The position numbers were made by a program, and so were the translations under genes. Below the pieces are notes generated by a model. The model had not been told where the DNA came from. It did not search any database and worked only from the letters and a program-made list of their open reading frames with translations. A DNA stretch of 64,000 bases. Source: a bacterium (GTDB lineage Bacteria > Patescibacteriota > Minisyncoccia > Phycocordibacterales > UBA5272). Location of the stretch: NCBI GenBank assembly GCA_023267595.1, contig JAHFNB010000001.1:94590-158589 (forward strand), in the 5' to 3' direction. Shown here piece by piece: positions 11,752 to 56,903 of the stretch. The stretch's first letter is position 1. Each line of letters opens with the position of its first letter.

Positions 11752-13656
11752 ATGAAAAAAATAATCTTAGCGACAAGTGTAGTATTTTCGCTAGTTTTCC
11801 AAGGGGGGTTCGTTTCTGCTCAATCTACGTTTGATTATAATTATGATTCAGGCACTACCTATGACTATAATTACGGTTCAAGTAATACATACGATTATAA
11901 CTACGGTTCAGGGAATACGTATGACTATAATTATGCCTCAGGCAATACGTATGATTATAACTATACTGCTCCACAAACAGGCACTACCTATGACTATAAT
12001 TACGGTGTAACTCTACAAACAGGTACAACATACGATTATAATTATTCTTCTGTGTTAGGTGGATCTGGTATAACATCTCCTTCGTACACATACACTCCTG
12101 GATATACATATACATCTCCAACAACATATGGTTCATCATACAGTTATCCAACAGTTGGAAATACTTCATACGGTGGAACTAGTTACGGAGGCATTAACTA
12201 TGGATATTCAAATTACGGATACTCTGCACCATCTGTAAGTTGGACAGGATATAACTATGGTTCTACATATGTAGCACCTCCAGTTACTACAACAATTCAA
12301 ACAATACAATGTTGGAATGGAACAGTGATTCCAAATACACAAACATGTCCTGCACAACCGACAACACCAACACAATGTTCGTATCTTTCTGATTCATATA
12401 CAACACGTTTCGATAATAATTATCCAACATGTACAAAACTTTGTTCTAATGGAACAACTATAGCAGGGAATCAACTTTGTCCTTCTACAGTAGTACAACC
12501 ACCAATCTATACTCCACCAACAATTAACTATCAAACATGTTGGGACGGATCTGTGATTCCTACAACATCAGTTTGTTCTTCACAGTACAAGGTGTGTGCT
12601 AATGGAACAAGTATTCCAATTTACCAAACATGTTATTACGGTAATACTTATGTTCCGTATGTGCCCCCACAAACAACAAAGTTCAACAGTGTTATAACAA
12701 GTATCGCAACACAAGTAACTATGAATAGTGGACGTTGTAACGGAATCGGACTCATCGCAAATAACGCGCAGTCAACAGGATGGTTTGAATACGGTGAAAC
12801 TGCATCTCTTGGTCGCACAACTGCGTCATCTGCAATCGGAAATTCATCATCTGCTCCATTTTCAAATCTTCTTTCAAATCTTAAAGCAAATACAAAATAT
12901 TACTGTCGCGCAGTTATGCAAAATCAGTACGGTATTGTAAAGGGTGATATTGTTTCTTTCACAACAAAGAGTAAGAGTGTTACGTATGTAAAACCAGTTA
13001 CAACAACGATAAAGACCGTTGTAAAACCAGTAGTAAAGAAAACAGAAATCATTTGTATTGATGGAAGTATTGTTTCAGTAGGAAGTCAATCATCTGCAAC
13101 ACTTATCAATAAAGGAGAGAAGTTGGTTGCTCTTCAAATGGTAAAGACAAATGGCTCACTCTCTGCAGGGAACTCAGTATCATATAACTTGTCATACAAG
13201 AATCTTTCAGACTCTCGTCTTACAGGTGTTGTTATTAAAGTAACTATTCCTCAAGAAATAACTAATGTGTCATCAAGTGTAGGAAATTATGACGAAGCAT
13301 CACACATGCTTACTCTTAATCAAGACACTATTGATGCATATACAGAAGGTGTAATTACATGGACTGGTAAAGTTGTAAAAGATGCACCAGTAGGAAAATC
13401 AATTGTTACAACTGCGTATGTTGTATATACCGTACCTGGAACATCAGTTCAAGATGAAGTAACTGCATATGTTGTTGGATCTATTATTCCTGCAACGACA
13501 ACTACTGTAGATACTGGAGCAAAGAATGTTATAGGAGCAAGCGAACGAGGATTCCTTCCAAACTCTCTCGTGGAATGGTTAGCCCTTATTGCAATCTTCT
13601 TTATTATCTATATCTTGGGTCGCAGTATTTATAGTTCCTATAAAGAGGAAAGATAA
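11752..13656 (+). CDS. Large repetitive cell-surface protein (Tyr/Ser/Thr-rich; DUF11-like beta-sandwich region; C-terminal membrane anchor)
   Basis: Signal peptide MKKIILATSVVFSLVFQGGFVSAQS. Eight or more copies of a T-YDYNY-GSGN decapeptide. Four C-x-N/D-G-T/S-x-I-P...C motifs. C-terminal LPNSL plus hydrophobic helix plus a basic tail. Confidence 0.75.
   Translation: MKKIILATSVVFSLVFQGGFVSAQSTFDYNYDSGTTYDYNYGSSNTYDYNYGSGNTYDYNYASGNTYDYNYTAPQTGTTYDYNYGVTLQTGTTYDYNYSSVLGGSGITSPSYTYTPGYTYTSPTTYGSSYSYPTVGNTSYGGTSYGGINYGYSNYGYSAPSVSWTGYNYGSTYVAPPVTTTIQTIQCWNGTVIPNTQTCPAQPTTPTQCSYLSDSYTTRFDNNYPTCTKLCSNGTTIAGNQLCPSTVVQPPIYTPPTINYQTCWDGSVIPTTSVCSSQYKVCANGTSIPIYQTCYYGNTYVPYVPPQTTKFNSVITSIATQVTMNSGRCNGIGLIANNAQSTGWFEYGETASLGRTTASSAIGNSSSAPFSNLLSNLKANTKYYCRAVMQNQYGIVKGDIVSFTTKSKSVTYVKPVTTTIKTVVKPVVKKTEIICIDGSIVSVGSQSSATLINKGEKLVALQMVKTNGSLSAGNSVSYNLSYKNLSDSRLTGVVIKVTIPQEITNVSSSVGNYDEASHMLTLNQDTIDAYTEGVITWTGKVVKDAPVGKSIVTTAYVVYTVPGTSVQDEVTAYVVGSIIPATTTTVDTGAKNVIGASERGFLPNSLVEWLALIAIFFIIYILGRSIYSSYKEER
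11830..12046 (+). repeat. Approx. 30-bp in-frame tandem repeats encoding TYDYNYGSGN units
   Basis: The motif acntatgantataantayggttcagg/naatac is repeated about 7-8 times. Confidence 0.8.
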
Positions 13657-45952: not shown

Positions 45953-46540
45953 ATGATCATGTCCGCAAGACTTGCACCGTTTATTGTTTTTTGTGGAATT
46001 GATGGTTGTGGAAAGACATCAGCCATCAAAGCAGTAGGGGAGAAATTTCCCACGGTAGATACTACACGAGAACCAGGAGGTACTCCTCTTGCAGAAAATA
46101 TCCGCAACTTACTCTTATCAGAAAAAGGAGGGATACTTTCTCCTTTAGAGCAAATGCACCTTTTCTTTGCGGGGCGTCACATTCATATTCATGAAAGGAT
46201 TCTTCCAAAAAGAAAGAGTGGCATTCCAGTAGTTTCTGATCGTTTTGATGGAAGTACATTCGCTTTTCAACGTTGCCTTAGTTTGGTTGCAGAGAAAATA
46301 GAAATTAACCAACCACTGTACGAAGAATTTTTCCGTTTGCGTGAACAAGTAGTACATCATTGTGAACCTTCTCTTTATATCTATTTAGAAGTTGATCCGG
46401 TAATTGGAATGAGAAGGCGCGCTTTTGCACGTGAACAAGAACTTAATCATTTTGATTTGGCGAATATCGAAGAACAAAAACGCCGAGCAGTTTCGTACCG
46501 TACCTTTTTTAAACATATACGTACGCGGGGTATCTCGTGA
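45953..46540 (+). CDS. tmk: Thymidylate kinase
   Basis: FIVFCGIDGCGKTSAIKAV P-loop. TREPGGTPLAENIR. Confidence 0.75.
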   Translation: MIMSARLAPFIVFCGIDGCGKTSAIKAVGEKFPTVDTTREPGGTPLAENIRNLLLSEKGGILSPLEQMHLFFAGRHIHIHERILPKRKSGIPVVSDRFDGSTFAFQRCLSLVAEKIEINQPLYEEFFRLREQVVHHCEPSLYIYLEVDPVIGMRRRAFAREQELNHFDLANIEEQKRRAVSYRTFFKHIRTRGIS

Positions 46541-46700: not shown

Positions 46701-48425
46701 ATGAATAAAGGTAGTCTTTCTGAGAGGTTAAGAGGAATTGTTATAGAAGGCCTCTTATCTATTGGTATTAAGGACGCACAAGAGATTTCTTTTTCTCTTG
46801 ATCAACCAGAAGATGTTGTACATGGTGAATACGCAACAAATGTTGCACTTGTTGTTGCAAAAACATTACAAATATCTCCACGTGAATGTGCAGAAAAGTT
46901 AATCACATATATTGAACACAATAAAGGTGAGATAATTTCGCGTGTAGAAATCGCGGGAGTTGGATTCATCAATTTTTTTGTAACAGAGTCTGCAAAAAAA
47001 GAACACATAGAATATGTGGCACACAATGAAGTACAACTCTCTATACTATCTGGTAAAACAGTTATTTGTGAATATACGGATCCAAATCCTTTTAAACTTT
47101 TCCATATCGGTCATACCGTTTCAAATACAGTTGGTGAATCATTGTCACGCATCTATGAAATAGTCGGTGCAAAGGTTATACGTGTATGTTATCAGGGAGA
47201 CATAGGTATGCATGTTGCGACAACTATGTGGGGGATAGAACATATGGGAGAAACTGTAGATGATAGTGCATCTCTTCGTGATAAAGTAACGTATCTTGGA
47301 AAAGGATATGCGTATGGTACACAACAATTAGAAGAGAATCCTTTGATTAAAGAAGAAATACAAACCATCAACAAACATCTCTTTGAAGGAAAAGAACATG
47401 AGATGTACGAGAAAGGAAAGAAGTGGAGTTTAGATTATTTTCAAACTGTTTATGAAAAGTTAGGAACTGCATTTGACTATTTCATTATGGAAAGTGAAGT
47501 TGGAGACAAAGGAAAACAAATTGTTATTGAAAATACACCAAAAGTTTTCGAACAAAGTGATGGCGCATATGTATACAAAGGTGAAAAGGTAGGATTACAT
47601 ACTCGTGTGTTTATTAATTCACAAGGGTTTCCAACCTATGAAGCAAAAGAATTAGGTAACTGTGCACGTAAAGAAGAATTGGTGCCGAATACCGATATTT
47701 CTGTTGTGGTAACTGCACATGAGGTGGACGAATATTTTAAAGTGATACAATCTGCACTTAAAGAAATTAATGAAGTACAAGCACAAAAATTAGTTCATAT
47801 TTCTCACGGAATGTTACGTCTCCCAGAAGGGAAGATGTCGTCACGCACAGGGAATATTATTTCTGCCGAAGATTTACTTGATGAAGTGAAAGAAAGAATA
47901 CAAGATAGATTAGAAAAAAGTGACTTGCCTGCCGGCGAGGCAGGTGCAGACAGTAAAGAACAACTTGCAAATGATATTGCAGTTGGATCAATTAAGTTTT
48001 CAATACTTCGTCAAGCAATTGGTCGCGATATTATTTTTGATATCGATAAATCCATTTCATTTGAAGGAGATTCAGGTCCATATTTACAATATACCCATGC
48101 ACGTATAGTTCAGTTATTAAAAAAAGCAGAAGATTTGGGAATAGCAGGAGCCTATCATAATGATGTTAACGAAGTAGTTCTTTCACGTAAACTGTTAATC
48201 TTTAAAGATGTATTACAAAAAGTTTATGATGATAAAGGTCCACACCATATGGTGAGTTATCTTATTTCACTTGCTCACGAGTTTAATTCTTTATATGGAA
48301 GACAGATTATCGTACATAAAGAAGATCCACACAGTCCTCATTATGTAGTACTTGCATCTGCGGTTGGAAATATTTTGAAGCAAGGACTCTACCTTCTAGG
48401 TATCGTTGCTCCAGATAAGATGTAA
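46701..48425 (+). CDS. argS: Arginyl-tRNA synthetase
   Basis: N-terminal Arg-tRNA-synt_N-like domain. HIGH region PNPFKLFHIGHTVSNTVGESL. C-terminal DALR anticodon-binding-like domain. Confidence 0.88.
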   Translation: MNKGSLSERLRGIVIEGLLSIGIKDAQEISFSLDQPEDVVHGEYATNVALVVAKTLQISPRECAEKLITYIEHNKGEIISRVEIAGVGFINFFVTESAKKEHIEYVAHNEVQLSILSGKTVICEYTDPNPFKLFHIGHTVSNTVGESLSRIYEIVGAKVIRVCYQGDIGMHVATTMWGIEHMGETVDDSASLRDKVTYLGKGYAYGTQQLEENPLIKEEIQTINKHLFEGKEHEMYEKGKKWSLDYFQTVYEKLGTAFDYFIMESEVGDKGKQIVIENTPKVFEQSDGAYVYKGEKVGLHTRVFINSQGFPTYEAKELGNCARKEELVPNTDISVVVTAHEVDEYFKVIQSALKEINEVQAQKLVHISHGMLRLPEGKMSSRTGNIISAEDLLDEVKERIQDRLEKSDLPAGEAGADSKEQLANDIAVGSIKFSILRQAIGRDIIFDIDKSISFEGDSGPYLQYTHARIVQLLKKAEDLGIAGAYHNDVNEVVLSRKLLIFKDVLQKVYDDKGPHHMVSYLISLAHEFNSLYGRQIIVHKEDPHSPHYVVLASAVGNILKQGLYLLGIVAPDKM

Positions 48426-48462: not shown

Positions 48463-51400
48463 ATGTCAGAGTCTAAGAATGTACCAAAGAGTATCAATGA
48501 AAAAGAGTTAGAAACACTTGCTTTTTGGCAGGAACATACAATATTTGAAAAGTCAGTAGAGACTCCTGCAGGTGATGTACCAAAAGGTAGTTTTTCTTTT
48601 TATGATGGTCCTCCATTTGCAACAGGGCTTCCTCATCATGGAACACTTATGGCAGGTACGGTAAAGGATATTATTCCGCGATATCAAACAATGAAAGGAA
48701 ATAGTGTTCGTCGTAAGTGGGGGTGGGATTGTCATGGTCTTCCAATAGAAAATCTAATTGAGAAGAAATTAGGATTAAAGAGTAAAAAAGATATTGAAGA
48801 CTTGGGTATTGCTACGTTTAATAAACATGCACAAGACAGTGTTCTTCAGTATGAATCAGAATGGAAAGAAATAATTCCTCGATCTGGAAGATTTGTCGAT
48901 ATGGATCATGATTATAAAACAATGGATGCAACATATACCGAGAGTGTATGGTGGGCATGGAAAACATTATACGAAAAAGGACTTGCCTACGAAGGATATA
49001 AAATGATGCATATTTGTCCACGTTGTGAGACCACACTTGCACAATCAGAAGTAGGAATGAACTACGAAGATGTTACTGATTTATCAGTAACTGCAAAGTT
49101 TGAACTTACTGATGAACCACAGACATTTGTTCTTGCATGGACAACAACACCGTGGACTCTTCCGGGGAATACGGCACTTGCTCTTTCACAAGATGCAGAG
49201 TACCTAAAAATAAGAGTAGGTGGAATGGAAGGAATGTATATTCTCGCGAAAGAAAGAATTGCTGATGTTCTTCAAGAAAAAAATTATGAAGTTATAGATA
49301 CGTTTAAGGGTTCGAAACTTATTGGTAAGTCATATAAACCAGTATTTCCATATTTTATTAATACAGAGATTGATAATAAAGAAAATATTTGGAAAATATG
49401 GCATGCAGATTTTATTACCCTAGATACAGGGACAGGTATTGCACACGAGGCACCCGCATTTGGTGCAGATGACATGGAACTCGCAAAGCAACATTCTATT
49501 CCTGTGATCAAGCATGTGCTTATGGATGGAACATTTACACACGATGTTACTGATTTTGTTGGCATGAAGGTAAAAAAAGTCGGAGATACGCAATCTGCTG
49601 ATATTGAAATCATTAAATATCTCGCACACAGTGGATCCTTATTTGAAAAACATAAAATAGTTCATTCCTATCCACTGTGTTGGCGATGTAAAACACCACT
49701 TCTTAATTATGCAACGTCGAGTTGGTTCATTGATGTGCCAAAAATGAAACCAACATTATTATCTGAGAATCAAAAAATAGGTTGGACTCCAGAACATATT
49801 CGTGATGGTAGATTTGGTAAATGGCTAGAAGGGGCACGTGAATGGGCAGTATCTCGTACTCGTTACTGGGGAGCGCCACTTCCTGTATGGAAAAATAAAG
49901 ATGGTGAATTGCTCGTTATCGGTTCTCTTAAAGAACTTGCAGAAAAAAATAAACAAAAAGTAAAGAATATATACTTTGTAATGCGTCATGGAGAAGCAGA
50001 GAGTAATGTAAAAGGTATTATTGATAGTAGTGGAGACACGACTAATGGGCTTACAGAAAAAGGCAAAGAACAAGTACGTACAGAAATAAAAAATCTTTCT
50101 CAGAAAATTGATCTTATTATCTCGTCTCCATTTTTACGTGCACAAGAAACAGCAGAGATTGTACGACAAGAATTGGGAGATGTTCAAATTATAGTTGATG
50201 AGAGATTGAAAGAGTTTCAATTAGGTATTTTCGACAAAAAACCAATAGAAGAATATTATAAAGTATTTTCCTCAATCACCTTAGATACGGTAATTACAGG
50301 AGGTGAAACTCATCGTGATATGTTCACACGTGCAATGTCAGTATGGAATGATTTGGAAAAGAAATATGAAGGAAAAAATATTCTGATAGTAACACATGGT
50401 GGTCCAGCATGGATGTTAACTGTCGGTACATCACTGATCACTGATGAAGCAATTAATGAATCAATGAAACATCTTGGTACTGGAAATTGGGTTCCAAATG
50501 CAAAGATTATCCCTCTAGAACCCCTCATTGTTCCACGAGATGAGACTGGAAACATAAATCTTCATCGTCCATACATTGATGAAGTAGAACTAGAAGTTGA
50601 TGGTGTTACATATACAAGAATTCCTGATGTGTTTGATTGTTGGTATGAGTCAGGTGCTATGCCATTTGCATCTCTTCATTATCCATTTGAAAATAAAGAT
50701 ATTTTCGATAAAAATTATCCAGCAGATTTTATTGCGGAAAGTATGGATCAAACACGAGGATGGTTTTATTCACTTATAAACTTAGGGGTAGGGCTATTTG
50801 ATAAAGCACCGTACAAACACGTTATTGTAAATGGGCTTATCAATGCAGCAGATGGGAAAAAGATTAGTAAAAGTTTAAATAACTATACTGATCCATTAGA
50901 ATTAATTGCAAAGTATGGAGCAGATGCATTTCGTCTTTACCTCATGTCTAGTTCTGTAGTAAAAGGAGAAAGTGTTAATTTTAAAGATGAGGATCTCGAT
51001 GGTGTTTACAAACGTTGTATTCTTAGACTAGAGAATGTTATGTCTCTCTACGAAATGAATAAACCAGAATCTGTGATACCACTATCTTCTTCAGATCATA
51101 TTCTTGATATGTGGATTATAAGTAGGCTTCATGAAGTTATTCAAGAGGCAACGCATGGATTTGATACGTATATGCTCGATGATGCAGTACGACCGTTTGA
51201 TCAGTTTATTGATGATGTTTCTGTTTGGTATATACGACGTTCACGTGAACGATTAAAAGGGGACTCTGGAGAAGAAGATCAAAGGATGGCCTACGGGACT
51301 CTCACTTACATATTACAAACGTTTGCAAAGACTATTGCACCAGTTATGCCATTTATTGCAGAGCGTCTTTACAAGCAATCAGGAGGAGAAAAAGAGTCTG

Positions 51401-51903
51401 TTCATCTCGAAAAATGGCCAAGTATAGGAGAGATTCATGAAGGTATACTTGCGGAAATGAAAATGGTTCGTGATGTAGTTTCACTTGGACTCATGAAGCG
51501 AACAGAAGTAAAGATAAATGTGAAACAACCGCTACTTTCTATTATGCTTAAACAAGATATTAATCCTAAGTATTTTGACGTTATCAAAGATGAATTGAAT
51601 GTAAAAAATGTTTTTATTCACGCCTCACAATCAGATGAAGTTAAACTTGATACCACAATAACTGAAGCATTACAAAAAGAGGGAGATATTCGCAAACTTA
51701 TTCGTGCTATACAAGATGCACGAAAAGAAAAAGGATTATTGCCACAAGATAGTATTGTGTTAACCTTATCTTCTGTTAGTGGTCTTGGGAATATTTCATT
51801 ACTTATTGCTACATGTAAAATCTCTGAAACAAGAGAAGATGCAAGTATTAAAGATAATTCGGTAGAATTATCTTCTGGAATTATATATTTTTCTATTGTC
51901 TAA
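48463..51903 (+). CDS. ileS: Isoleucyl-tRNA synthetase with an embedded histidine-phosphatase (PGAM-like) domain
   Basis: IleRS signatures PFATGLPHHGT, WTTTPWTLPGN and KISKS. The residue 502-687 segment carries RHGEAESN, SPFLRAQET and IVTHGG phosphatase motifs, in-frame. Confidence 0.85.
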   Translation: MSESKNVPKSINEKELETLAFWQEHTIFEKSVETPAGDVPKGSFSFYDGPPFATGLPHHGTLMAGTVKDIIPRYQTMKGNSVRRKWGWDCHGLPIENLIEKKLGLKSKKDIEDLGIATFNKHAQDSVLQYESEWKEIIPRSGRFVDMDHDYKTMDATYTESVWWAWKTLYEKGLAYEGYKMMHICPRCETTLAQSEVGMNYEDVTDLSVTAKFELTDEPQTFVLAWTTTPWTLPGNTALALSQDAEYLKIRVGGMEGMYILAKERIADVLQEKNYEVIDTFKGSKLIGKSYKPVFPYFINTEIDNKENIWKIWHADFITLDTGTGIAHEAPAFGADDMELAKQHSIPVIKHVLMDGTFTHDVTDFVGMKVKKVGDTQSADIEIIKYLAHSGSLFEKHKIVHSYPLCWRCKTPLLNYATSSWFIDVPKMKPTLLSENQKIGWTPEHIRDGRFGKWLEGAREWAVSRTRYWGAPLPVWKNKDGELLVIGSLKELAEKNKQKVKNIYFVMRHGEAESNVKGIIDSSGDTTNGLTEKGKEQVRTEIKNLSQKIDLIISSPFLRAQETAEIVRQELGDVQIIVDERLKEFQLGIFDKKPIEEYYKVFSSITLDTVITGGETHRDMFTRAMSVWNDLEKKYEGKNILIVTHGGPAWMLTVGTSLITDEAINESMKHLGTGNWVPNAKIIPLEPLIVPRDETGNINLHRPYIDEVELEVDGVTYTRIPDVFDCWYESGAMPFASLHYPFENKDIFDKNYPADFIAESMDQTRGWFYSLINLGVGLFDKAPYKHVIVNGLINAADGKKISKSLNNYTDPLELIAKYGADAFRLYLMSSSVVKGESVNFKDEDLDGVYKRCILRLENVMSLYEMNKPESVIPLSSSDHILDMWIISRLHEVIQEATHGFDTYMLDDAVRPFDQFIDDVSVWYIRRSRERLKGDSGEEDQRMAYGTLTYILQTFAKTIAPVMPFIAERLYKQSGGEKESVHLEKWPSIGEIHEGILAEMKMVRDVVSLGLMKRTEVKINVKQPLLSIMLKQDINPKYFDVIKDELNVKNVFIHASQSDEVKLDTTITEALQKEGDIRKLIRAIQDARKEKGLLPQDSIVLTLSSVSGLGNISLLIATCKISETREDASIKDNSVELSSGIIYFSIV

Positions 51904-51929: not shown

Positions 51930-52484
51930 ATGGCCATAGAGAAATATACAACCAAATGCATAGTTCTCGATTCATATCCAAATGGTGAACATGATAGGGT
52001 CTATAAATTATTTACACGGGAGTTTGGATTAATTATGGCACATGCAAAAAGTATTCGTAAATTAGAAAGTAAATTACGTGCGCATGTCCTTCCGCGATCA
52101 TTATCTCTTGTAACACTTGTTCTTGGAAAGGAAGTATGGAGATTGGTTGGTGCAGAGGAACAAAGAGGAATACATAGTAATATTCATGAAGTGACACAGT
52201 TACTCAATCGCTTTATTCGTGGAGAAGGGGAACACAAGGCACTTTATGATAGAGTTATTACTCTTATGATGAGTTCATCGTCATATGACGTACAAAAATT
52301 ACGATTACTTGCATACTACATTATTTTGACAGAATTAGGGTATGCAGATGTAAAAGTTATTGGTGCACAGTCGATGAAAGAGTATCTTGCATGGAATATG
52401 GATGATATATATTTGCATATGCTTTTACATGAAACAAAAGTAAAGTCTCATGTTCATGCAGTATTACAAGAAATGCAACTCTAG
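51930..52484 (+). CDS. Hypothetical protein, possibly short RecO-like
   Basis: N-terminal pattern KCIVLDSYPNGEHDRVYKLFTREFGLIMAHAKSIRKLESKLRAHVLP resembles the RecO OB-fold. Weak. Confidence 0.4.
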   Translation: MAIEKYTTKCIVLDSYPNGEHDRVYKLFTREFGLIMAHAKSIRKLESKLRAHVLPRSLSLVTLVLGKEVWRLVGAEEQRGIHSNIHEVTQLLNRFIRGEGEHKALYDRVITLMMSSSSYDVQKLRLLAYYIILTELGYADVKVIGAQSMKEYLAWNMDDIYLHMLLHETKVKSHVHAVLQEMQL

Positions 52485-52507: not shown

Positions 52508-54376
52508 ATGGAGATACCAAACAATGAAGAAAGCGCATTAGATAGTATTGAGCACGAATTATATGATCCAAAGAAGAAAATGGATGATGTAATGATGCAT
52601 CGTGTTCGTGATGCAAGAAGTGTTGATTTACCAACATCATGGGGAGAGATAAATCCTATTATTACAGAAGCGCATGATTCAAAAACACTTTCGTTTGGTG
52701 CAAAAATACTTATCGGATCATGCATACTACTTCTCCTTTCTCTTTCATTTACAGCATGGCGTGTGCTTTCATCTCGTAATGTTGTTTCTGCGGCCAATAT
52801 CGACATGTCGACAGAAATTGTCCCATATATTGAAGGTGGTCAAGATACACCTTTTACGGTGACATTACAAAATAGAAATGGATCTGCCCTCCAAGAAGCA
52901 TCGCTTACTTTATTGTATAAACAAGGTAATGGTACTCAAGATGAACAAGAGAAAATTACCGAGAAACGAGACTTAGGAACAATTGGTGTTAATGAATATA
53001 AGAAACAAGATTTTAAAGTTATTGTATATGGTGGTGAATCAGAAGCACGAGATCTTACGGTAAAACTAGAATACAAAGTTGCAGGATCAAATGCAGTTTT
53101 TAATAAAATTGTTACAACATCTGTTGTACTTAAAACACCACCACTTTCTGTTCATATCGAAGGTCCATCACTACTGTCTATTGGTCAAACAGGAGAGTTT
53201 ATTATTTCTGTAAAAAATAATGCGGCTACATCATCATTACCGAGTGCTCTTCAAGTTATTTTACCTACTAATTTTACCGTTGAGAGTACAGATCCAAAAC
53301 CAAGTTCTCGTGGCCAAGTTTGGAATGTTCCATCACTTGATCAAGGCGAAACAAAAACGTTTACCATCACAGGTGCAATTACTGGGTCTCAAGGTGAGAC
53401 GAGCACCATAAAAGCCCTTGTTGGTTCTCAGGGTGGGCTAATTGCAAGCATTGGTGTTGTATATTCATCTCAGACATATGATATACAATTACGTTCTTCA
53501 CCACTTATGCTCTCATTAGGACTTGAAACGGATAGAGGAAACGTCGAGACATTACGTTATGGTGATAAAACACTTGTAACCGTAACGTATGCAAATAGTA
53601 GTGACCAACCGATTCGTGATGTCTCTCTTGTATTAAAGATACAAGGTGATGCGCCGTTACTTAAACAAGTAGATCCTGATGCAGGATATTATGATTCGCG
53701 TGCTCAGAGTATTACGTGGAATAAATCAATAATATCTAATTTGGCAAATCTTACACCACACGCACAAGGATCATTCCGAGTTGTTATTCCTGTGGTGAGT
53801 AAGGGAATAAATTCTCCTGCTATTAATCTGTCACTTTCTGGTAATGGAACTGTACAGGATAAAAATGATGTGACAACAATGCTTTCAAAATCATGGATAG
53901 TACAAGGTACTGCAACATTAAGTGGACAAACGACATATAAAAACTCTCCTTTCCAAAATACTGGACCTGTACCACCACAACCAAATGTAGATACTACGTA
54001 CACAACACACATTGTTGTATCTGCGCAGAACGCACTTGTAAATAGCCGCGTATCATTTATTTTACCTGCGTATGTGACATGGAAAAATGTAACATCAAAT
54101 ACTACATCTATTAGTTATGATGCAGGGACTCGTACTGTAACATGGGATATTGGTTCTATAGGAGCAGGGAAAACAGTAATGGCAGATATTAATCTTTCAG
54201 TTCGTCCATCACAAAGTCATGTCGGGCAATCACCATCTATTACTTCGGGAATAGTACTCGATGCAGATGAAGAAGTAGCAAGAACTCATATTCGCACCAC
54301 TATCTCTCCACTTACAACGATCCTTGTAGGAGAAAATTGGCCAGTTGATCCATCACGTGTTGTAGATAGTCAATAA
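52508..54376 (+). CDS. Large membrane-anchored surface protein with repeated beta-sandwich (DUF11/CARDB-like) modules
   Basis: TM at about aa 55-80. Long Ser/Thr/Asn/Val-rich extracellular region with repeated 'TVT...N.S...L' modules. Confidence 0.6.
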   Translation: MEIPNNEESALDSIEHELYDPKKKMDDVMMHRVRDARSVDLPTSWGEINPIITEAHDSKTLSFGAKILIGSCILLLLSLSFTAWRVLSSRNVVSAANIDMSTEIVPYIEGGQDTPFTVTLQNRNGSALQEASLTLLYKQGNGTQDEQEKITEKRDLGTIGVNEYKKQDFKVIVYGGESEARDLTVKLEYKVAGSNAVFNKIVTTSVVLKTPPLSVHIEGPSLLSIGQTGEFIISVKNNAATSSLPSALQVILPTNFTVESTDPKPSSRGQVWNVPSLDQGETKTFTITGAITGSQGETSTIKALVGSQGGLIASIGVVYSSQTYDIQLRSSPLMLSLGLETDRGNVETLRYGDKTLVTVTYANSSDQPIRDVSLVLKIQGDAPLLKQVDPDAGYYDSRAQSITWNKSIISNLANLTPHAQGSFRVVIPVVSKGINSPAINLSLSGNGTVQDKNDVTTMLSKSWIVQGTATLSGQTTYKNSPFQNTGPVPPQPNVDTTYTTHIVVSAQNALVNSRVSFILPAYVTWKNVTSNTTSISYDAGTRTVTWDIGSIGAGKTVMADINLSVRPSQSHVGQSPSITSGIVLDADEEVARTHIRTTISPLTTILVGENWPVDPSRVVDSQ

Positions 54377-54430: not shown

Positions 54431-55477
54431 ATGAAAGAAAGTATACGTATTACGATTGCGTCAAGCACTATTGTTAAGTTTCTCTGTTGGGTAACCATTT
54501 TTGCAGGACTTTTTTATGTAAGTGATTTTGTAATTGCACTCTTTGTTGCTGTTGTCTTGGCTTCTACTATTGAGATCCCAGTTCGTACCATGATGAAGTG
54601 GGGGCTATCACGTGGTATAGCAGTAACACTTTTATTTCTATCTATTGTTGCAGTAATAGTAGTAGTTTTCCTTATATTTATTCCGCCACTTGCAGATGAC
54701 ATTGCACGATTTATTAAAACACTTCCACAAATTCTAGACTCAGTTCGTATTTTTGGAAGTGATATGGGATTTAAGGATTTATCTGTAATAGTACAAGATA
54801 TTTCACGAGATATTTCAAAAGGGGAGATACTAACCATATTAAAGAATGCATTTCTTGGAACAAGTGGAGTATTTGCAACAACATCTCTCTTCTTAGGTGG
54901 TGTTGTAAATGTGGTGCTTACTTTTGTACTTGCATTTTATCTGGCTCTTGAAGATCGTGGGGTTCAAAAGTTTTTGAGACTACTTGTTCCTAAGACACAT
55001 GAAGCATATGTTGAAGATCTGTGGAATCGTGCACAGAAGAAAATCGGACTTTGGATGCAGGGACAGTTTCTGCTATCACTTTTAATTGCGCTTCTTGTGT
55101 ATATTCCTAATCTTATTTTGAATATGCCATATGCAGCACTTCTCGCCATCTTGGCATTTATAGGTGAATTTATTCCTATGGTTGGTCTTACTCTTGCAAT
55201 GGTTCCTGCTTTCTTCCTTGCGTGGACTCATGGAGGTGTTCAACTTCTCGGTATAGTTGCACTTATTTATTTCATAATTTCACAACTTGAAAGTCATGTT
55301 ATTTACCCACGTATTATGAGTAAAATGGTAGGCGTTCCATCGGTTGTTGTTATCATTGCTATTATCATAGGAGCAAAGTTAGCAGGTATTTGGGGGGTTT
55401 TACTTGCGGTGCCACTTGCATCTATCTTTATGGAACTTGCAAGTGATTTAGAAAAAAGGAAATTACATGAAGGGTAA
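54431..55477 (+). CDS. AI-2E (UPF0118/PerM) family transporter
   Basis: About 8 TM helices. Topology and length are typical of the AI-2E family. Moderate. Confidence 0.55.
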   Translation: MKESIRITIASSTIVKFLCWVTIFAGLFYVSDFVIALFVAVVLASTIEIPVRTMMKWGLSRGIAVTLLFLSIVAVIVVVFLIFIPPLADDIARFIKTLPQILDSVRIFGSDMGFKDLSVIVQDISRDISKGEILTILKNAFLGTSGVFATTSLFLGGVVNVVLTFVLAFYLALEDRGVQKFLRLLVPKTHEAYVEDLWNRAQKKIGLWMQGQFLLSLLIALLVYIPNLILNMPYAALLAILAFIGEFIPMVGLTLAMVPAFFLAWTHGGVQLLGIVALIYFIISQLESHVIYPRIMSKMVGVPSVVVIIAIIIGAKLAGIWGVLLAVPLASIFMELASDLEKRKLHEG

Positions 55478-56903
55478 TAAGCATCTCATTACGACTGCAA
55501 TTGCATATGGCAATGCTTCACCACATATTGGTCATGCATTTGAGTTTGTAACTGCCGATACTTTATCACGCTTCCATAGACTTATAGGTGGGGATGTGTA
55601 TTTTATTACAGGAATGGATGAACATGGGCAAAAGATCGAGCGAAAAGCAAAAGAGCAAAATATCCCTGTTCAAGAATTTGTAGATATATATGCAAAAAGT
55701 TTTATAGATCTAGATGCAAAACTTTCTGTCGTATATGATTTTTTTGTTCGTACAAGTGATAAAGCAAAACATTATCAAGGTGCTCAACATTTATGGAAAA
55801 AGTTAGTTGATGCAAAGACTATTGAAAAACGTTCATATAAGGCACTCTATTGTGTTGGATGTGAAGAGTTCAAAACTGAAAAAGATTTAAATGAAAAAGG
55901 GGAGTGCCCACTTCATCTCGTTAAACCAGAAATTGTAGAAGAAGAAAATTATTTTTTTACATTGTCACAATTCACAGATAAAATTAAAGAAAAGATTTCA
56001 TCGGATGAATTAAAGATCTATCCAGAAAGTAGAAAAAATGAAATTATGGCGCTTCTTGAACGGGGACTTGGAGATGTCTCTTTTTCTCGACCAAAGAGTA
56101 AGGTGACGTGGGGGATACCAGTACCCGAAGATGATACACAAGTCATGTATGTGTGGTGTGACGCCCTTTCAAATTATCTTACAGCAATTGGGTATGGAAC
56201 TGAACATTTTGATAAAGATTTATGGGTAAATACGACACATATAATTGGAAAAGATATCTTACGTTTCCACGCAGCCATATGGCCTGCTATGTTACTTGCC
56301 GCAGATCTTCCATTGCCAAAAAGAATTTTGGTGCACGGGTTTATTACGTCCCATGGTCAGAAAATGAGTAAGACACTTGGGAATGTTATCGATCCGCAAG
56401 AACTTTTACAGATGTTTGATAGTCCTGCAGGGGAGTTAGCAGGGGAAGCACTTCGTTTTATCTTACTTCATGAAGTGCCAAGTTTTGAAGATGGAGATGT
56501 AACCATGGAAACTATTCGTGCCTCATACACTGCACATCTTGCAAACGGAATCGGAAATCTGACGAGTAGAATTATGAAGATGGCGATATCTAATGCAGTT
56601 AGAAGTAAGATGTCAGATGTTAGAAGTAAAATACAAATACAAGAATATGATACAAATGGATCCTTAAAAAAAGTTATGAGTGAAATGAGACTACTCGATG
56701 AGTACATAGCAACTAATGAACCATTTAAAGTAATAAAAGTAGACATGGAGAGAGGAAAAGAGATGATAGTATATTGTCTTGTGAGACTAGAACAAATTGT
56801 AGAAGATCTGTCTATTTTCATGCCAAAGACATCTGCAAAAATTTTAGAATGTATCCGAGAAAATAAAATGCCAGAAAAACCATTGTTTGGTAGACTTGCT
56901 TAG
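55467..56903 (+). CDS. metG: Methionyl-tRNA synthetase
   Basis: HIGH region AIAYGNASPHIGHAFEFV. Zn knuckle CVGCEEF...CPLH. KMSKTLGNVIDP. Confidence 0.9.
   Translation: MKGNKHLITTAIAYGNASPHIGHAFEFVTADTLSRFHRLIGGDVYFITGMDEHGQKIERKAKEQNIPVQEFVDIYAKSFIDLDAKLSVVYDFFVRTSDKAKHYQGAQHLWKKLVDAKTIEKRSYKALYCVGCEEFKTEKDLNEKGECPLHLVKPEIVEEENYFFTLSQFTDKIKEKISSDELKIYPESRKNEIMALLERGLGDVSFSRPKSKVTWGIPVPEDDTQVMYVWCDALSNYLTAIGYGTEHFDKDLWVNTTHIIGKDILRFHAAIWPAMLLAADLPLPKRILVHGFITSHGQKMSKTLGNVIDPQELLQMFDSPAGELAGEALRFILLHEVPSFEDGDVTMETIRASYTAHLANGIGNLTSRIMKMAISNAVRSKMSDVRSKIQIQEYDTNGSLKKVMSEMRLLDEYIATNEPFKVIKVDMERGKEMIVYCLVRLEQIVEDLSIFMPKTSAKILECIRENKMPEKPLFGRLA

What the first reader, a model, noticed from the sequence alone, without database searches (positions are those of the whole stretch)
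49966..50523. Isoleucyl-tRNA synthetase carrying an in-frame histidine-phosphatase (PGAM-like) domain inside the catalytic core
The 1146-aa ileS ORF has unambiguous IleRS hallmarks: PFATGLPHHGT, WTTTPWTLPGN and KISKS.

Residues about 502-687 read as a complete histidine-phosphatase / phosphoglycerate-mutase-like domain. The motifs are FVMRHGEAESN (the RHG catalytic His plus Asn), SSPFLRAQETA and ILIVTHGGPAWML (the second catalytic His).

The segment sits between ordinary IleRS sequence, ...PVWKNKDGELLVIGSLKELAEK on one side and LIVPRDETGNINLHRPYIDEV... on the other. It has no stop or frame change. I am not aware of a described IleRS, or of any class I aaRS, carrying this phosphatase fold.

It could hydrolyse a phospho-intermediate such as a misactivated aminoacyl-adenylate, Ap4A or ppGpp, or an inhibitor. 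It could equally be a lineage-specific moonlighting insertion.
Basis: partly seen in the sequence, partly recalled or inferred. Interest (0 to 1): 0.85.

Follow-up and report, generated by a model that had tools for sequence, protein, structure and literature searches.

The report
Phosphatase domain inserted inside IleRS
The isoleucyl-tRNA synthetase of this candidate-phyla-radiation bacterium carries a complete, apparently active histidine-phosphatase domain in one of its surface loops; related bacteria encode the same phosphatase as a separate gene just upstream of ileS, so the two enzymes probably work together, though on what substrate is unknown.

Summary
ORF 48463-51903 (+, 1146 aa) is a type-2 IleRS (TIGR00392, 820 bits). 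A 9-residue loop of canonical IleRS is replaced here by about 203 residues (aa 494-696) that form a His_Phos_1 domain (E 1.8e-32; AF2 pLDDT 83-98).

It is not an artefact. The same gene sits on three independent contigs. All 120 best full-length homologs share the architecture, as do 50 species-representative Patescibacteria genomes. The catalytic set R508/H509/N515/R559/E584/H645 is nearly invariant, although the insert evolves faster than the IleRS body (46% vs 71% identity).

New findings:
- In relatives with insert-free IleRS, a free ~189-aa phosphatase of the same subfamily lies directly upstream of ileS (7 of 8 look-ups). It sits in the same argS-ileS-recO block as the window, sometimes overlapping the ileS start.
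- Free and inserted states were mutually exclusive in the loci examined.
- Other lineages carry extra copies at other IleRS sites, in ValRS, and fused to Sua5/YrdC and a QueC-like enzyme.

The substrate is unknown; inorganic pyrophosphate (PPi) or an adenine nucleotide is my best guess. I found no paper describing this. It is a new variant of known kinds, common in public data but unremarked.

The parts
46701..48425 (+). argS (arginyl-tRNA synthetase, 574 aa). It is the upstream member of the conserved block argS-[HP]-ileS-recO-CLIPPER-like. Only 37 nt separate it from ileS, so this genome has no free phosphatase gene here.
   Evidence: ORF. Pfam Arg_tRNA_synt_N/tRNA-synt_1d/DALR_1 on the identical locus L001. 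Synteny.
48463..51903 (+). ileS::His_Phos, the whole 1146-aa ORF: a type-2 isoleucyl-tRNA synthetase with an inserted phosphatase domain.
   Evidence: AF2 model pLDDT 87.9, pTM 0.80. Best structural match is P. megaterium IleRS2 8C8V, TM 0.80.
48463..49941 (+). IleRS N-terminal part (aa 1-493): first half of the Rossmann fold with the HIGH motif (HHGT, aa 58-61, nt 48634-48645), the CP1 editing domain (WTTTPWTLPGN at aa 226-236, GTGIAHEAPAFG at about aa 323-334), and the start of the second half up to ...PVWKNKDGELLVIGSLKELA.
   Evidence: The editing motifs are invariant in 120+ homologs.
49942..50550 (+). The insertion proper (aa 494-696, about 203 residues) replacing a 9-residue loop of canonical type-2 IleRS. 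Insert-free CPR orthologs have 8-11 residues here.
   Evidence: HMMER alignment to 8C8U. Empty-site versus filled-site alignment with L085-L094 IleRS.
49975..50421 (+). His_Phos_1 (PF00300) core match, aa 505-653. Catalytic codons: R508-H509 (49984-49989), N515 (50005-50007), R559 (50137-50139), E584 (50212-50214), H645 (50395-50397).
   Evidence: E 6.5e-31 and 1.8e-32. Residues nearly invariant in 136 sequences. Pattern RHNREEH in 135 of 168 domain copies examined, at all sites. Domain-only AF2 model pLDDT 92.7. Foldseek hits to PhoE, PspA, CobC and HFP at E about 1e-12.
50551..51903 (+). IleRS C-terminal part (aa 697-1146): NLHRPYID..., DVFDCWYESG, the KMSKS loop (KISKS, aa 800-804, nt 50860-50874), the anticodon-binding helical domain and the C-terminal DUF5915 region.
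51930..52484 (+). recO-like gene (184 aa, RecO_N only), a conserved downstream neighbour of ileS in both the inserted and the free-HP arrangements.
52508..54376 (+). CLIPPER-like 622-aa protein, the next conserved member of the syntenic block.

Best explanation
The gene encodes a bifunctional polypeptide with two parts. One is a working type-2 IleRS with its synthetic site, CP1 editing domain and anticodon-binding domain intact. The other is a catalytically competent, PhoE/CobC/PspA-like branch-1 histidine phosphatase, rigidly inserted in a surface loop of the Zn-knuckle subdomain of the catalytic domain.

The phosphatase is the in-cis form of a ~189-aa phosphatase that sister Patescibacteria encode as a separate gene directly upstream of ileS, often translationally coupled to it, in the same argS-ileS-recO block. 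In the window's lineage that neighbour was captured into the ileS reading frame.

Shown:
- domain identities and insertion boundaries;
- intact catalytic residues under purifying selection;
- wide conservation;
- free and inserted states are alternatives within one syntenic block;
- repeated association of this phosphatase subfamily with adenylate-forming enzymes (IleRS at three or more sites, ValRS, Sua5/YrdC, a QueC-like PP-loop enzyme).

Inferred:
- The phosphatase serves the synthetase. It uses H509 as nucleophile and E584 as acid to remove a terminal phosphoryl group from a small ligand or by-product of the adenylation reaction.
- My best guess for that substrate is inorganic pyrophosphate (which would make amino-acid activation irreversible) or an adenine nucleotide.

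Rough sub-probabilities:
- active phosphohydrolase: 0.9
- functionally coupled to the synthetase rather than merely co-encoded: 0.55
- substrate is PPi or an adenine nucleotide: 0.3
- substrate is PPi specifically: 0.2
For: Identity and integrity:
- establish the two domains and their folds.
- R508, H509, N515, R559, E584, G614/E615, R623 and H645 are at least 90% conserved in 136 sequences. The full catalytic pattern is kept in copies at every insertion site.
- The insert is 46% identical across the close clade against 71% for the IleRS body. It is freer to drift, yet the active site is held.
- The linkers have pLDDT 89-95, which suggests a fixed orientation.

Not an artefact:
- Three independent contigs carry the gene.
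- All 120 best homologs share the architecture.
- 50 species-representative genomes have full coverage of the junction query.

Functional link:
- All 8 free-standing homologs I looked up lie next to a class Ia synthetase gene: 7 directly upstream of an insert-free ileS (4-nt overlap in L091, 1-nt gap in L085, 3-nt gap in L092) and 1 near a leuS.
- None of the 50 insert-bearing loci has a free copy between argS and ileS.
- The insert-free orthologs have an 8-11-residue loop at the site, and their free HP is 35-41% identical to the window's insert.

Other partners:
- second IleRS sites B and C, and tandem copies;
- ValRS, in P0169 and P0262;
- Sua5/YrdC, sharing the same 'SGN.YF.MRH' junction;
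- a QueC-like PP-loop ATPase.

All of these partners convert ATP to an acyl-adenylate plus PPi (established enzymology). One histidine-phosphatase-superfamily enzyme (EhHAPp49, branch 2) was reported to hydrolyse PPi (PMC7926622).
Against: - No substrate could be assigned. The nearest solved structures are equally distant small-molecule phosphatases with very different substrates (19-27% identity). All NCBIfam equivalog cutoffs are missed.
- If PPi removal were the purpose, every aaRS should benefit. Yet among the 150 closest representatives only IleRS (about 74 aaRS representatives) and ValRS (2) carry the domain.
- Extra copies occur at site C, a loop leading into the anticodon-binding domain. 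This argues against a need for precise placement next to the synthetic site.
- Inserted copies have lost a loop motif (S-x-W-P-E, aa 521-525) that is over 89% conserved in the free proteins, and they changed Q562 to E. Free and inserted forms may therefore not do exactly the same thing.
- The PPi precedent comes from branch 2 of the superfamily, not branch 1.
- The geometry between H509 and the IleRS active site could not be measured because model coordinates are not exposed.
- Whether these genomes lack a canonical pyrophosphatase could not be checked. Only 64 kb was available, and no PPase turned up among the ten window ORFs I scanned.
Confidence: 0.5

Rival explanations
1. Operon-neighbour capture without mechanistic coupling. 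The domain is an ordinary housekeeping small-molecule phosphatase (for example of a sugar phosphate, phospho-amino acid, nucleotide or cofactor intermediate). It happened to lie next to ileS and was fused into a permissive loop. IleRS is only a carrier that guarantees expression.
For: - The structural and sequence neighbours are metabolic phosphatases.
- The free protein is a complete stand-alone enzyme, abundant in Patescibacteria.
- Domain charge is neutral.
- Extra copies occur at loops far apart in the sequence, including one near the anticodon-binding domain.
- The N- and C-terminal strands of the domain are adjacent in the model, which makes it easy to insert into loops.
- Physical proximity of the donor gene to ileS would favour repeated capture.
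Against: - Independent fusions exist to four different adenylate-forming enzymes, only one of which is its usual neighbour.
- The HP-ileS adjacency is tight and widely retained, with overlapping stop and start codons.
- The architecture persists across a very large clade with a conserved active site.
Confidence: 0.3
2. A macromolecular phosphatase. The domain removes a phosphate or pyrophosphate from the 3' end of tRNA(Ile), for example damage or toxin-installed groups that block charging. Alternatively it dephosphorylates the synthetase itself after attack by a HipA-type kinase toxin. Some histidine-phosphatase-superfamily members, such as PGAM5, Sts-1 and SixA, are protein phosphatases (own knowledge).
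For: - The association is with tRNA-handling class Ia enzymes (IleRS, ValRS, and one free copy near LeuRS).
- All partners belong to tRNA biology.
- The linkers are rigid.
- SixA is among the weak NCBIfam matches (46.9 bits against a cutoff of 74.5).
Against: - Sua5/YrdC and QueC do not bind tRNA (established enzymology).
- The domains are not basic: net charge is about 0, and -5 for the window copy.
- The closest structures are small-molecule enzymes.
- No toxin kinase or toxSAS gene was seen next to the locus. One ParE/RHH pair in L086 is unrelated.
Confidence: 0.1
3. A non-catalytic structural or regulatory module. The fold is kept only as a ligand sensor or as a scaffold that replaces the Zn knuckle. 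The window's clade has lost the four knuckle cysteines.
For: - The window clade lacks the CxxC...CxC cysteines that flank the site in other CPR IleRS.
- The insert evolves faster than the IleRS body.
- The W-P-E loop motif of the free form is lost in inserted copies.
Against: - Every catalytic residue is at least 90% conserved across hundreds of divergent copies. That is not expected for a pseudo-enzyme.
- Many insert-bearing IleRS still keep the Zn cysteines.
Confidence: 0.07
4. An artefact or selfish element: a chimeric assembly, a frameshifted pair of genes, an intein or another mobile insertion.
For: None found. It was considered only because domain-in-domain architectures in MAGs can come from misassembly.
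Against: - The ORF is uninterrupted.
- The same sequence sits on three contigs.
- The architecture is conserved at 27-77% identity in hundreds of genomes.
- Composition is uniform.
- There are no flanking repeats.
- There are no intein splice motifs. Sequence inspection shows a histidine-phosphatase domain from end to end.
Confidence: 0.01

Closest known systems
Type-2 (eukaryote-like, mupirocin-resistant type) bacterial IleRS, e.g. Priestia megaterium IleRS2 (PDB 8C8U/8C8V) and Thermus thermophilus IleRS (1ILE)
   Same: The whole synthetase body matches: phmmer E 2e-203 and Foldseek TM 0.80. It has HIGH and KMSKS motifs, the CP1 editing domain, the anticodon-binding domain and the C-terminal tRNA-binding region.
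   Different: The 9-residue loop at 476-484 of 8C8U is replaced by a 203-residue phosphatase domain. The fourth HIGH position is Thr (HHGT). The Zn-knuckle cysteines around the site are absent in the window's clade.
Free-standing ~189-aa Patescibacteria histidine phosphatase encoded directly upstream of ileS (e.g. P0267, P0348, P0369; sources call it 'broad specificity phosphatase PhoE' or 'histidine phosphatase family protein')
   Same: It belongs to the same subfamily: 35-41% identity to the window insert over the whole domain. The core residues are the same. The chromosomal neighbourhood argS-...-ileS-recO is the same.
   Different: It is a separate polypeptide. It carries a conserved S-x-W-P-E loop and Q562, which the inserted copies have lost or changed. 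As a family it is more uniform than the inserted copies (Kimura distance 0.81 vs 1.36). Its function is uncharacterised.
PhoE (YhfR) of Geobacillus stearothermophilus (1EBB/1H2E), with PspA phosphoserine phosphatase (4IJ5), CobC alpha-ribazole phosphatase (6NRU/6E4B) and the riboflavin-pathway HFP (9MMH)
   Same: Short 'phosphatase-type' branch-1 fold, catalytic R-H-N-R-E-H constellation and similar size. Best sequence hit E 7e-10. Best fold hits E about 1e-12, TM 0.71-0.80.
   Different: Only 19-27% identity, and all NCBIfam equivalog cutoffs are missed. None of these is inserted in another enzyme. Their substrates differ from one another, so no substrate can be transferred.
IleRS with an added N-acetyltransferase domain (NCBIfam NF040702 'ileS_w_GNAT')
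   Same: It is a precedent for an IleRS that carries an extra enzymatic domain and is recognised by a curated model.
   Different: The added domain and the lineage are different. The window protein scores 296 bits against a cutoff of 1999. No comparable curated model exists for the phosphatase-bearing form.
Bifunctional RNase H / acid phosphatase of actinobacteria (NCBIfam NF005567, Rv2228c type)
   Same: A branch-1 histidine phosphatase fused to a nucleic-acid enzyme. The window insert matches its phosphatase half (71 bits).
   Different: That fusion is end-to-end, not an insertion. The partner and lineage differ, and the score is below the cutoff (326).
Pyrophosphatase fused to PPi-releasing adenylyl-transferases (e.g. 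ATP sulfurylase-APS kinase-pyrophosphatase fusions of some eukaryotes; recalled from my own knowledge, not checked here)
   Same: It is an analogy for the favoured mechanism: a PPi-producing activation enzyme covalently joined to an enzyme that removes PPi.
   Different: Those fusions use family-I pyrophosphatase domains, not a histidine phosphatase. PPi hydrolysis by the window domain is untested.

Membership tests
Isoleucyl-tRNA synthetase (TIGR00392 ileS; class Ia) | Whole-protein score above the curated equivalog cutoff | tested here: met
   820.4 bits against a cutoff of 621.4, in two stretches split by the insert.
Isoleucyl-tRNA synthetase (TIGR00392 ileS; class Ia) | Class I signature motifs HIGH and KMSKS | tested here: met
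   HHGT at aa 58-61 and KISKS at aa 800-804. The first His, the Gly and K-x-S-K-S are invariant in homologs. The fourth HIGH position is H in 85, T in 19 and S in 16 of 120 sequences.
Isoleucyl-tRNA synthetase (TIGR00392 ileS; class Ia) | CP1 editing domain with its Thr-rich and GTG..H..P motifs | tested here: met
   WTTTPWTLPGN and TGIAHEAPAFG are invariant or nearly so in about 121 sequences.
Isoleucyl-tRNA synthetase (TIGR00392 ileS; class Ia) | Overall fold, including the anticodon-binding and C-terminal domains | tested here: met
   AF2 pLDDT 87.9. Foldseek to 8C8V E 2.5e-81, TM 0.80. Pfam Anticodon_1 and DUF5915.
Isoleucyl-tRNA synthetase (TIGR00392 ileS; class Ia) | Aminoacylation of tRNA(Ile) and editing of valine | not testable with these tools
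   Requires biochemistry.
Mupirocin-resistance IleRS MupA / MupB (NF000257, NF000258) | Score above the exception-model cutoff | tested here: not met
   670 and 664 bits against a cutoff of 1900. It is related as a type-2 IleRS but is not a member.
Histidine phosphatase superfamily, branch 1 (Pfam PF00300 His_Phos_1) | Profile match above the gathering score | tested here: met
   108-113 bits against a cutoff of 21.7, E 6.5e-31 and 1.8e-32.
Histidine phosphatase superfamily, branch 1 (Pfam PF00300 His_Phos_1) | Catalytic constellation: RHG nucleophile His, Asn, second Arg, acid Glu, second His | tested here: met
   R508, H509, N515, R559, E584 and H645 are present and at least 90% conserved.
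Histidine phosphatase superfamily, branch 1 (Pfam PF00300 His_Phos_1) | Alpha/beta/alpha fold of the family | tested here: met
   Domain model pLDDT 92.7. Foldseek hits to PhoE, PspA, CobC, HFP, TIGAR and dPGM, E 2e-12 to 1e-10, TM 0.7-0.8.
Histidine phosphatase superfamily, branch 1 (Pfam PF00300 His_Phos_1) | Phosphohydrolase activity through a phospho-histidine intermediate | not testable with these tools
   Requires an enzyme assay.
Cofactor-dependent phosphoglycerate mutase (dPGM; NF038349, TIGR01258 and related) | Score above the equivalog or subfamily cutoff | tested here: not met
85 bits against 225 (NF038349) and 26 against 82 (TIGR01258).
Alpha-ribazole phosphatase CobC (TIGR03162), phosphoserine phosphatase PspA (NF045917), SixA (TIGR00249) | Score above the equivalog cutoff | tested here: not met
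   83.6 against 162.9, 46.6 against 350, and 46.9 against 74.5.
IleRS with N-acetyltransferase domain (NF040702) | Score above the cutoff and presence of a GNAT domain | tested here: not met
   296 bits against 1999, and no GNAT Pfam hit.
Intein or other mobile in-frame insertion | Splice-junction residues, a homing-endonuclease or Hint fold, or flanking repeats | tested here: not met
   The whole insert is accounted for by His_Phos_1. Only two short matches consistent with chance were found. The insertion is ancient and vertically conserved.

The most novel reading that the evidence does not exclude
The inserted domain is a dedicated, synthetase-bound pyrophosphatase or adenine-nucleotide phosphohydrolase. 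It keeps amino-acid activation irreversible at the proofreading class Ia synthetases (IleRS, and occasionally ValRS) and at other adenylate-forming tRNA-pathway enzymes (Sua5, QueC-like) in Patescibacteria. That would be a previously unrecognised accessory activity of aminoacyl-tRNA synthetases, present either as a translationally coupled partner gene or as an internal domain.
Probability: 0.2. Interest if true: 0.85.

Novelty: new variant of a known kind. Interest (0 to 1): 0.62.

Why it matters
Bacterial aminoacyl-tRNA synthetases rarely acquire extra catalytic domains. Here an essential synthetase carries a second, apparently active enzyme inside its catalytic domain, and it does so across a large part of the candidate phyla radiation. 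The same phosphatase is a translationally coupled upstream gene in sister lineages.

Three lines of evidence together make a strong, directly testable case that a phosphatase activity is needed alongside isoleucine activation in these reduced-genome bacteria:
- fusion to the synthetase;
- conserved gene neighbourhood;
- repeated independent fusions to other adenylate-forming enzymes.

Finding the substrate could reveal how these organisms drive or protect tRNA charging, for instance by removing PPi, by clearing a phosphorylated nucleotide inhibitor, or by repairing the tRNA end. It also gives a clean natural example of a neighbouring gene becoming an internal domain. If the phosphatase proves unrelated to translation, the case is still a useful warning that 'Rosetta-stone' fusions can arise from mere adjacency.

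Tried and rejected
- **Chimeric assembly or frameshift:** rejected.
- **Mobile element or intein:** rejected.
- **Split genes or an alternative genetic code** as the reason for the short (283-450 aa) first-round hits: rejected. They are fragments from short contigs or carry local frameshifts, and the full-length search returned 1138-1214-aa proteins.
- **Assignment to a characterised phosphatase subfamily** (dPGM, CobC, PspA, SixA, GpmB, PhoE): all below cutoffs, and the fold search gives no preference.
- **RNA-binding signature by charge:** none.
- **Single versus multiple origin of the inserted copies:** the distance and NJ analysis is saturated and unresolved.
- **Context of a non-CPR stand-alone homolog (P0029):** uninformative.
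- **Independent confirmation of ValRS-HP in JGI metagenome contigs:** only two distant partial matches. A second ValRS-like representative, P0262, was found locally.
- **AFDB search** to see how UniProt annotates such proteins: the library was unavailable.
- **Measuring the distance between H509 and the IleRS active site:** impossible, because model coordinates are not exposed.
- **Looking for a canonical pyrophosphatase:** none among the ten window ORFs I scanned, and the papers found say nothing useful. Absence from the genome cannot be claimed from 64 kb.
- **Literature:** 7 full-text searches found no description of a synthetase with a histidine-phosphatase domain.
set aside on mechanistic grounds, since neither has a terminal phosphoryl group.
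Full report
**1. What is in the sequence**

ORF 48463-51903 (+) encodes 1146 aa with no stop or frame change.

Pfam finds four things: tRNA-synt_1 split in two (E 4e-125), His_Phos_1 at aa 505-653 (E 6.5e-31), Anticodon_1 and DUF5915. The excised segment 49966-50523 alone gives His_Phos_1 at E 1.8e-32. NCBIfam TIGR00392 (ileS) scores 820 bits against a cutoff of 621.

The closest solved structures are type-2 IleRS: P. megaterium IleRS2 8C8U/8C8V, yeast IleRS and T. thermophilus 1ILE. In the HMMER alignment to 8C8U, query 493 pairs with 475 and query 697 with 485. A 9-residue loop is therefore replaced by about 203 residues, aa 494-696 or nt 49942-50550.

The site lies in the middle of the small Zn-knuckle subdomain of the second Rossmann half, between ...PxW-(CxxC)-x-VIGS..EL... 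and ...LHRPYID-x-(CxC).... That is a peripheral loop, not the catalytic centre.

**2. It is real and conserved**

- GC content is uniform across the insert, and there are no flanking repeats.
- The identical protein is encoded on three independently assembled contigs with the same neighbours.
- A database search with the full protein returned 8000 IleRS-like hits. The 120 best (63-77% identity, 1138-1214 aa, plus one 100% match held by NCBI and ENA) all carry PF00133 plus PF00300.
It gave 257 confirmed matches, of which 80 were kept.
- Among those 80, 50 loci cover the whole junction query. They come from MAGs labelled Paceibacterota, Nomura-, Zambryski-, Sungii-, Colwell-, Wolfe-, Yanofsky- and Falkowbacteria, Parcubacteria and 'Saccharibacteria'.
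- The non-CPR IleRS among the 80 match only the last ~35-50 residues, so they have no insert.
- Sources name these proteins only 'isoleucyl-tRNA synthetase' or 'class I tRNA ligase family protein'.

**3. Both halves look functional**

In 136 aligned sequences the editing motifs (WTTTPWTLPGN, TGxAHxAPAFG), K-x-S-K-S and the first His and Gly of HIGH are invariant.

In the insert, R508, H509, G510, N515, R559, T563, E584, G588, G614, E615, R623, H645 and G646 are at least 90% conserved. Meanwhile the insert as a whole is only 46% identical across the close clade, against 71% for the IleRS body. That is purifying selection focused on the active site.

AlphaFold2 gives pLDDT 87.9 and pTM 0.80 for the whole protein. 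The insert scores 83-98 and the two linkers 89-95, which suggests a fixed rather than floppy attachment. The domain alone gives pLDDT 92.7.

Its structural neighbours are short 'phosphatase-type' branch-1 enzymes: riboflavin-pathway HFP 9MMH, PspA 4IJ5/6, CobC 6E4B/6NRU, PhoE 1H2E, Rv2419c and TIGAR. All sit at E about 1e-12 and 19-27% identity. By sequence the best solved relative is PhoE at E 7e-10.

Every NCBIfam equivalog cutoff (dPGM, CobC, PspA, SixA, GpmB) is missed. The family is certain; the substrate is not.

**4. The wider family of this phosphatase**

An exhaustive phmmer search of the insert against 1.84 billion cluster representatives gave 11,372 hits at E<=1e-3 and 1,123 at E<=1e-10. 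I classified the best 150 with the window's own IleRS halves.

- About 90 domain copies sit at the same site as ours (site A).
- Some IleRS carry a second copy elsewhere:
  - Site B lies in the HYPFEN...YPADF loop, aa 739-753 of our protein (P0170, P0212, P0182, P0312).
  - Site C lies in the loop before the anticodon-binding helices, aa about 860-876 (P0170, P0198, P0212, P0274).
  - Tandem copies occur at site A (P0266, P0310).
- These multi-insert proteins are true IleRS, scoring 761-857 bits on TIGR00392.
- Two representatives are ValRS-like. P0169 has four copies, one at the position homologous to site A directly after ...RIPVWY. P0262 is the other.
- P0017 and P0020 are Sua5/YrdC proteins with the phosphatase at the C-terminus, joined by the same 'SGN.YF.MRH' linker seen in IleRS.
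- P0292 is a QueC-like PP-loop ATPase with the phosphatase at its C-terminus.
- All copies at all sites keep the catalytic pattern R-H-N-R-E-E-H.
- The extra copies are deeply diverged and are not each other's nearest relatives, so they are old.

**5. The key context result**

A profile search seeded with the non-IleRS fusions returned a large, fairly uniform family of free-standing 184-205-aa phosphatases. They come from Patescibacteria (Portnoy-, Pace- and Staskawiczbacteria, Minisyncoccales) and are 40-47% identical to the fused domains.

I looked up eight of them on long contigs.

- Seven lie directly upstream of an insert-free ileS (923-982 aa). Six of those sit in the block argS-HP-(0-3 small genes)-ileS-recO-CLIPPER-like-class II aaRS.
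- The HP stop codon and ileS start are 1 nt apart in L085, overlap by 4 nt in L091 and are 3 nt apart in L092. That is typical of translational coupling.
- The eighth (L093) lies one gene upstream of a LeuRS that itself carries an inserted serine-hydrolase domain.

The window has the same block (argS 46701-48425, ileS::HP, recO 51930-52484, CLIPPER-like 52508-54376). Only 37 nt separate argS from ileS, and the six-frame translation of the 64 kb contains no other phosphatase of this family.

Across the 50 insert-bearing species loci, none has a free copy between argS and ileS. One (L050) has an extra copy downstream.

Aligning the insert-free IleRS of the free-HP genomes with ours shows an 8-11-residue 'empty site' exactly where ours is filled. 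Identity outside the insert is 32-49%. Their free phosphatases are 35-41% identical to our insert over the whole domain.

The simplest reading is that a neighbouring, co-translated gene was captured into a loop of ileS. Non-CPR IleRS lack the insert, so the free state is probably ancestral (inference). Distance analysis cannot say whether capture at site A happened once or several times.

**6. How it most likely works**

Shown:
- There are two intact enzymes in one chain.
- The phosphatase is tied to ileS by fusion, by gene order and by the mutual exclusivity of the two states.
- The same subfamily has repeatedly joined enzymes that turn ATP into an acyl-adenylate plus PPi (IleRS, ValRS, Sua5/YrdC, a QueC-like enzyme).

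Inferred: the phosphatase serves these enzymes by removing a terminal phosphoryl group from something they all see.

Established knowledge of the family (a phospho-histidine intermediate on the RHG histidine, with the leaving group protonated by the Glu) requires a terminal phosphate. It allows PPi, AMP/ADP/ATP, 3'-phosphorylated nucleotides such as ppGpp or (p)ppApp, and a 3'-phosphorylated tRNA end.

The ligands common to all partners are ATP, AMP and PPi. Sua5 and QueC do not bind tRNA, and the domains are not basic. I therefore favour PPi or an adenine nucleotide, with PPi removal making activation irreversible. That would matter most for proofreading synthetases. A branch-2 member of the superfamily has been reported to hydrolyse PPi (PMC7926622).

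The weaknesses are real:
- No other aaRS types carry the domain.
- Extra copies sit far from the active site in the sequence.
- Inserted copies have lost an S-x-W-P-E loop and changed Q562 to E relative to the free proteins. This could mean a changed substrate. It could also mean that a docking motif became unnecessary once the domain was covalently attached.
- I could neither measure the geometry nor check whole genomes for ppa.

The main rival is therefore capture of a housekeeping phosphatase that is simply co-encoded with ileS.

**7. Comparison with what is known, and novelty**

The synthetase is a member of IleRS, type 2. The insert is a member of His_Phos_1 branch 1, but of no characterised subfamily. 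'PGAM-like' holds for the fold only.

Two precedents exist for the general idea: NCBIfam's 'ileS_w_GNAT' model, and the actinobacterial RNase H/acid phosphatase fusion. Neither is the same thing.

Seven full-text searches found no paper mentioning a synthetase with a histidine-phosphatase domain. The library does not cover all journals, so absence is not proof.

The proteins themselves are abundant in public databases and carry automatic Pfam hits. The architecture is therefore 'seen but not remarked', and I class it as a new variant of known kinds. The new contributions here are:
- the exact boundaries of the insertion;
- evidence that it is the rule in a large Patescibacteria clade;
- the free-gene versus inserted-domain alternation within one syntenic block;
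- the additional insertion sites and partner enzymes.

**8. Verdict**

- Observation: confirmed.
- Interpretation: partly supported.
- Interest: 0.62. It would surprise a synthetase specialist and is directly testable, but both parts are known folds, the substrate is unknown, and the architecture is common in existing data.

Noticed in passing
L093:7550-10585: A Patescibacteria LeuRS (PF13603 editing domain, 189 bits) carries an inserted serine-hydrolase / alpha-beta-hydrolase domain (PF06821, E 2.8e-22) at aa 383-566, just after the editing domain. A free phosphatase of the family studied here lies one gene upstream. This is another class Ia synthetase with an inserted hydrolase.
   Followed up: partly
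proteins P0169 and P0262 (cluster representatives, no locus): These are ValRS-like proteins carrying the same phosphatase. P0169 has four copies, one directly after ...RIPVWY, the position homologous to the IleRS insertion site. Both are truncated at the C-terminus. A metagenome scan found no further examples.
   Followed up: partly
L003:619-1758 (P0017); also P0020 and P0292: Sua5/YrdC (t6A pathway) proteins have this phosphatase at the C-terminus, joined by the same 'SGN.YF.MRH' linker as in IleRS. P0292 is a QueC-like PP-loop ATPase (SGGFDT motif, Cys cluster) with the phosphatase at its C-terminus.
   Followed up: partly
window 48634-48645 (aa 58-61): The HIGH signature reads HHGT. Among 120 close homologs the fourth position is H in 85, T in 19 and S in 16, so loss of the last His is a recurrent variant in this clade.
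   Followed up: partly
window 49885-49941 and 50572-50625 (about aa 475-493 and 704-721): The window's IleRS and its close clade lack the four cysteines (CxxC ... CxC) of the Zn knuckle that flanks the insertion site. Insert-free CPR orthologs and many other insert-bearing IleRS keep them.
   Followed up: partly
window 50023-50037 (aa 521-525) and 50146-50148 (aa 562): Free-standing phosphatases have a strongly conserved S-x-W-P-E loop (89-95%) and Q562 (100%). Inserted copies have lost the loop motif (W in 2%) and mostly have E562. This may mark a substrate change, or a docking motif made redundant by covalent insertion.
   Followed up: no
L086:7652-8819: Between the free phosphatase and ileS in this genome sit an RHH/ParE-type toxin-antitoxin pair and a 208-aa HD_3 (HD-domain phosphohydrolase) gene. 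L088 and L094 have unannotated 208-aa genes nearby that gave no Pfam or NCBIfam hit.
   Followed up: partly
L050:9237-9713: This is the only insert-bearing locus of 50 with an additional phosphatase copy within 6 kb. It lies downstream of ileS where recO is usually found.
   Followed up: no
window 51930-52484: The recO-like gene is short (184 aa, RecO_N only), as in several related loci. Other relatives have a 228-251-aa form that includes RecO_C.
   Followed up: no
window 11752-13656: A 634-aa ORF with no Pfam match at E<=1e-5.
   Followed up: no
window 55467-56903: A compact MetRS (478 aa). Together with argS and ileS, that makes three class I synthetase genes within 10 kb. A thymidylate kinase gene (45953-46540) lies just upstream of argS.
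   Followed up: no
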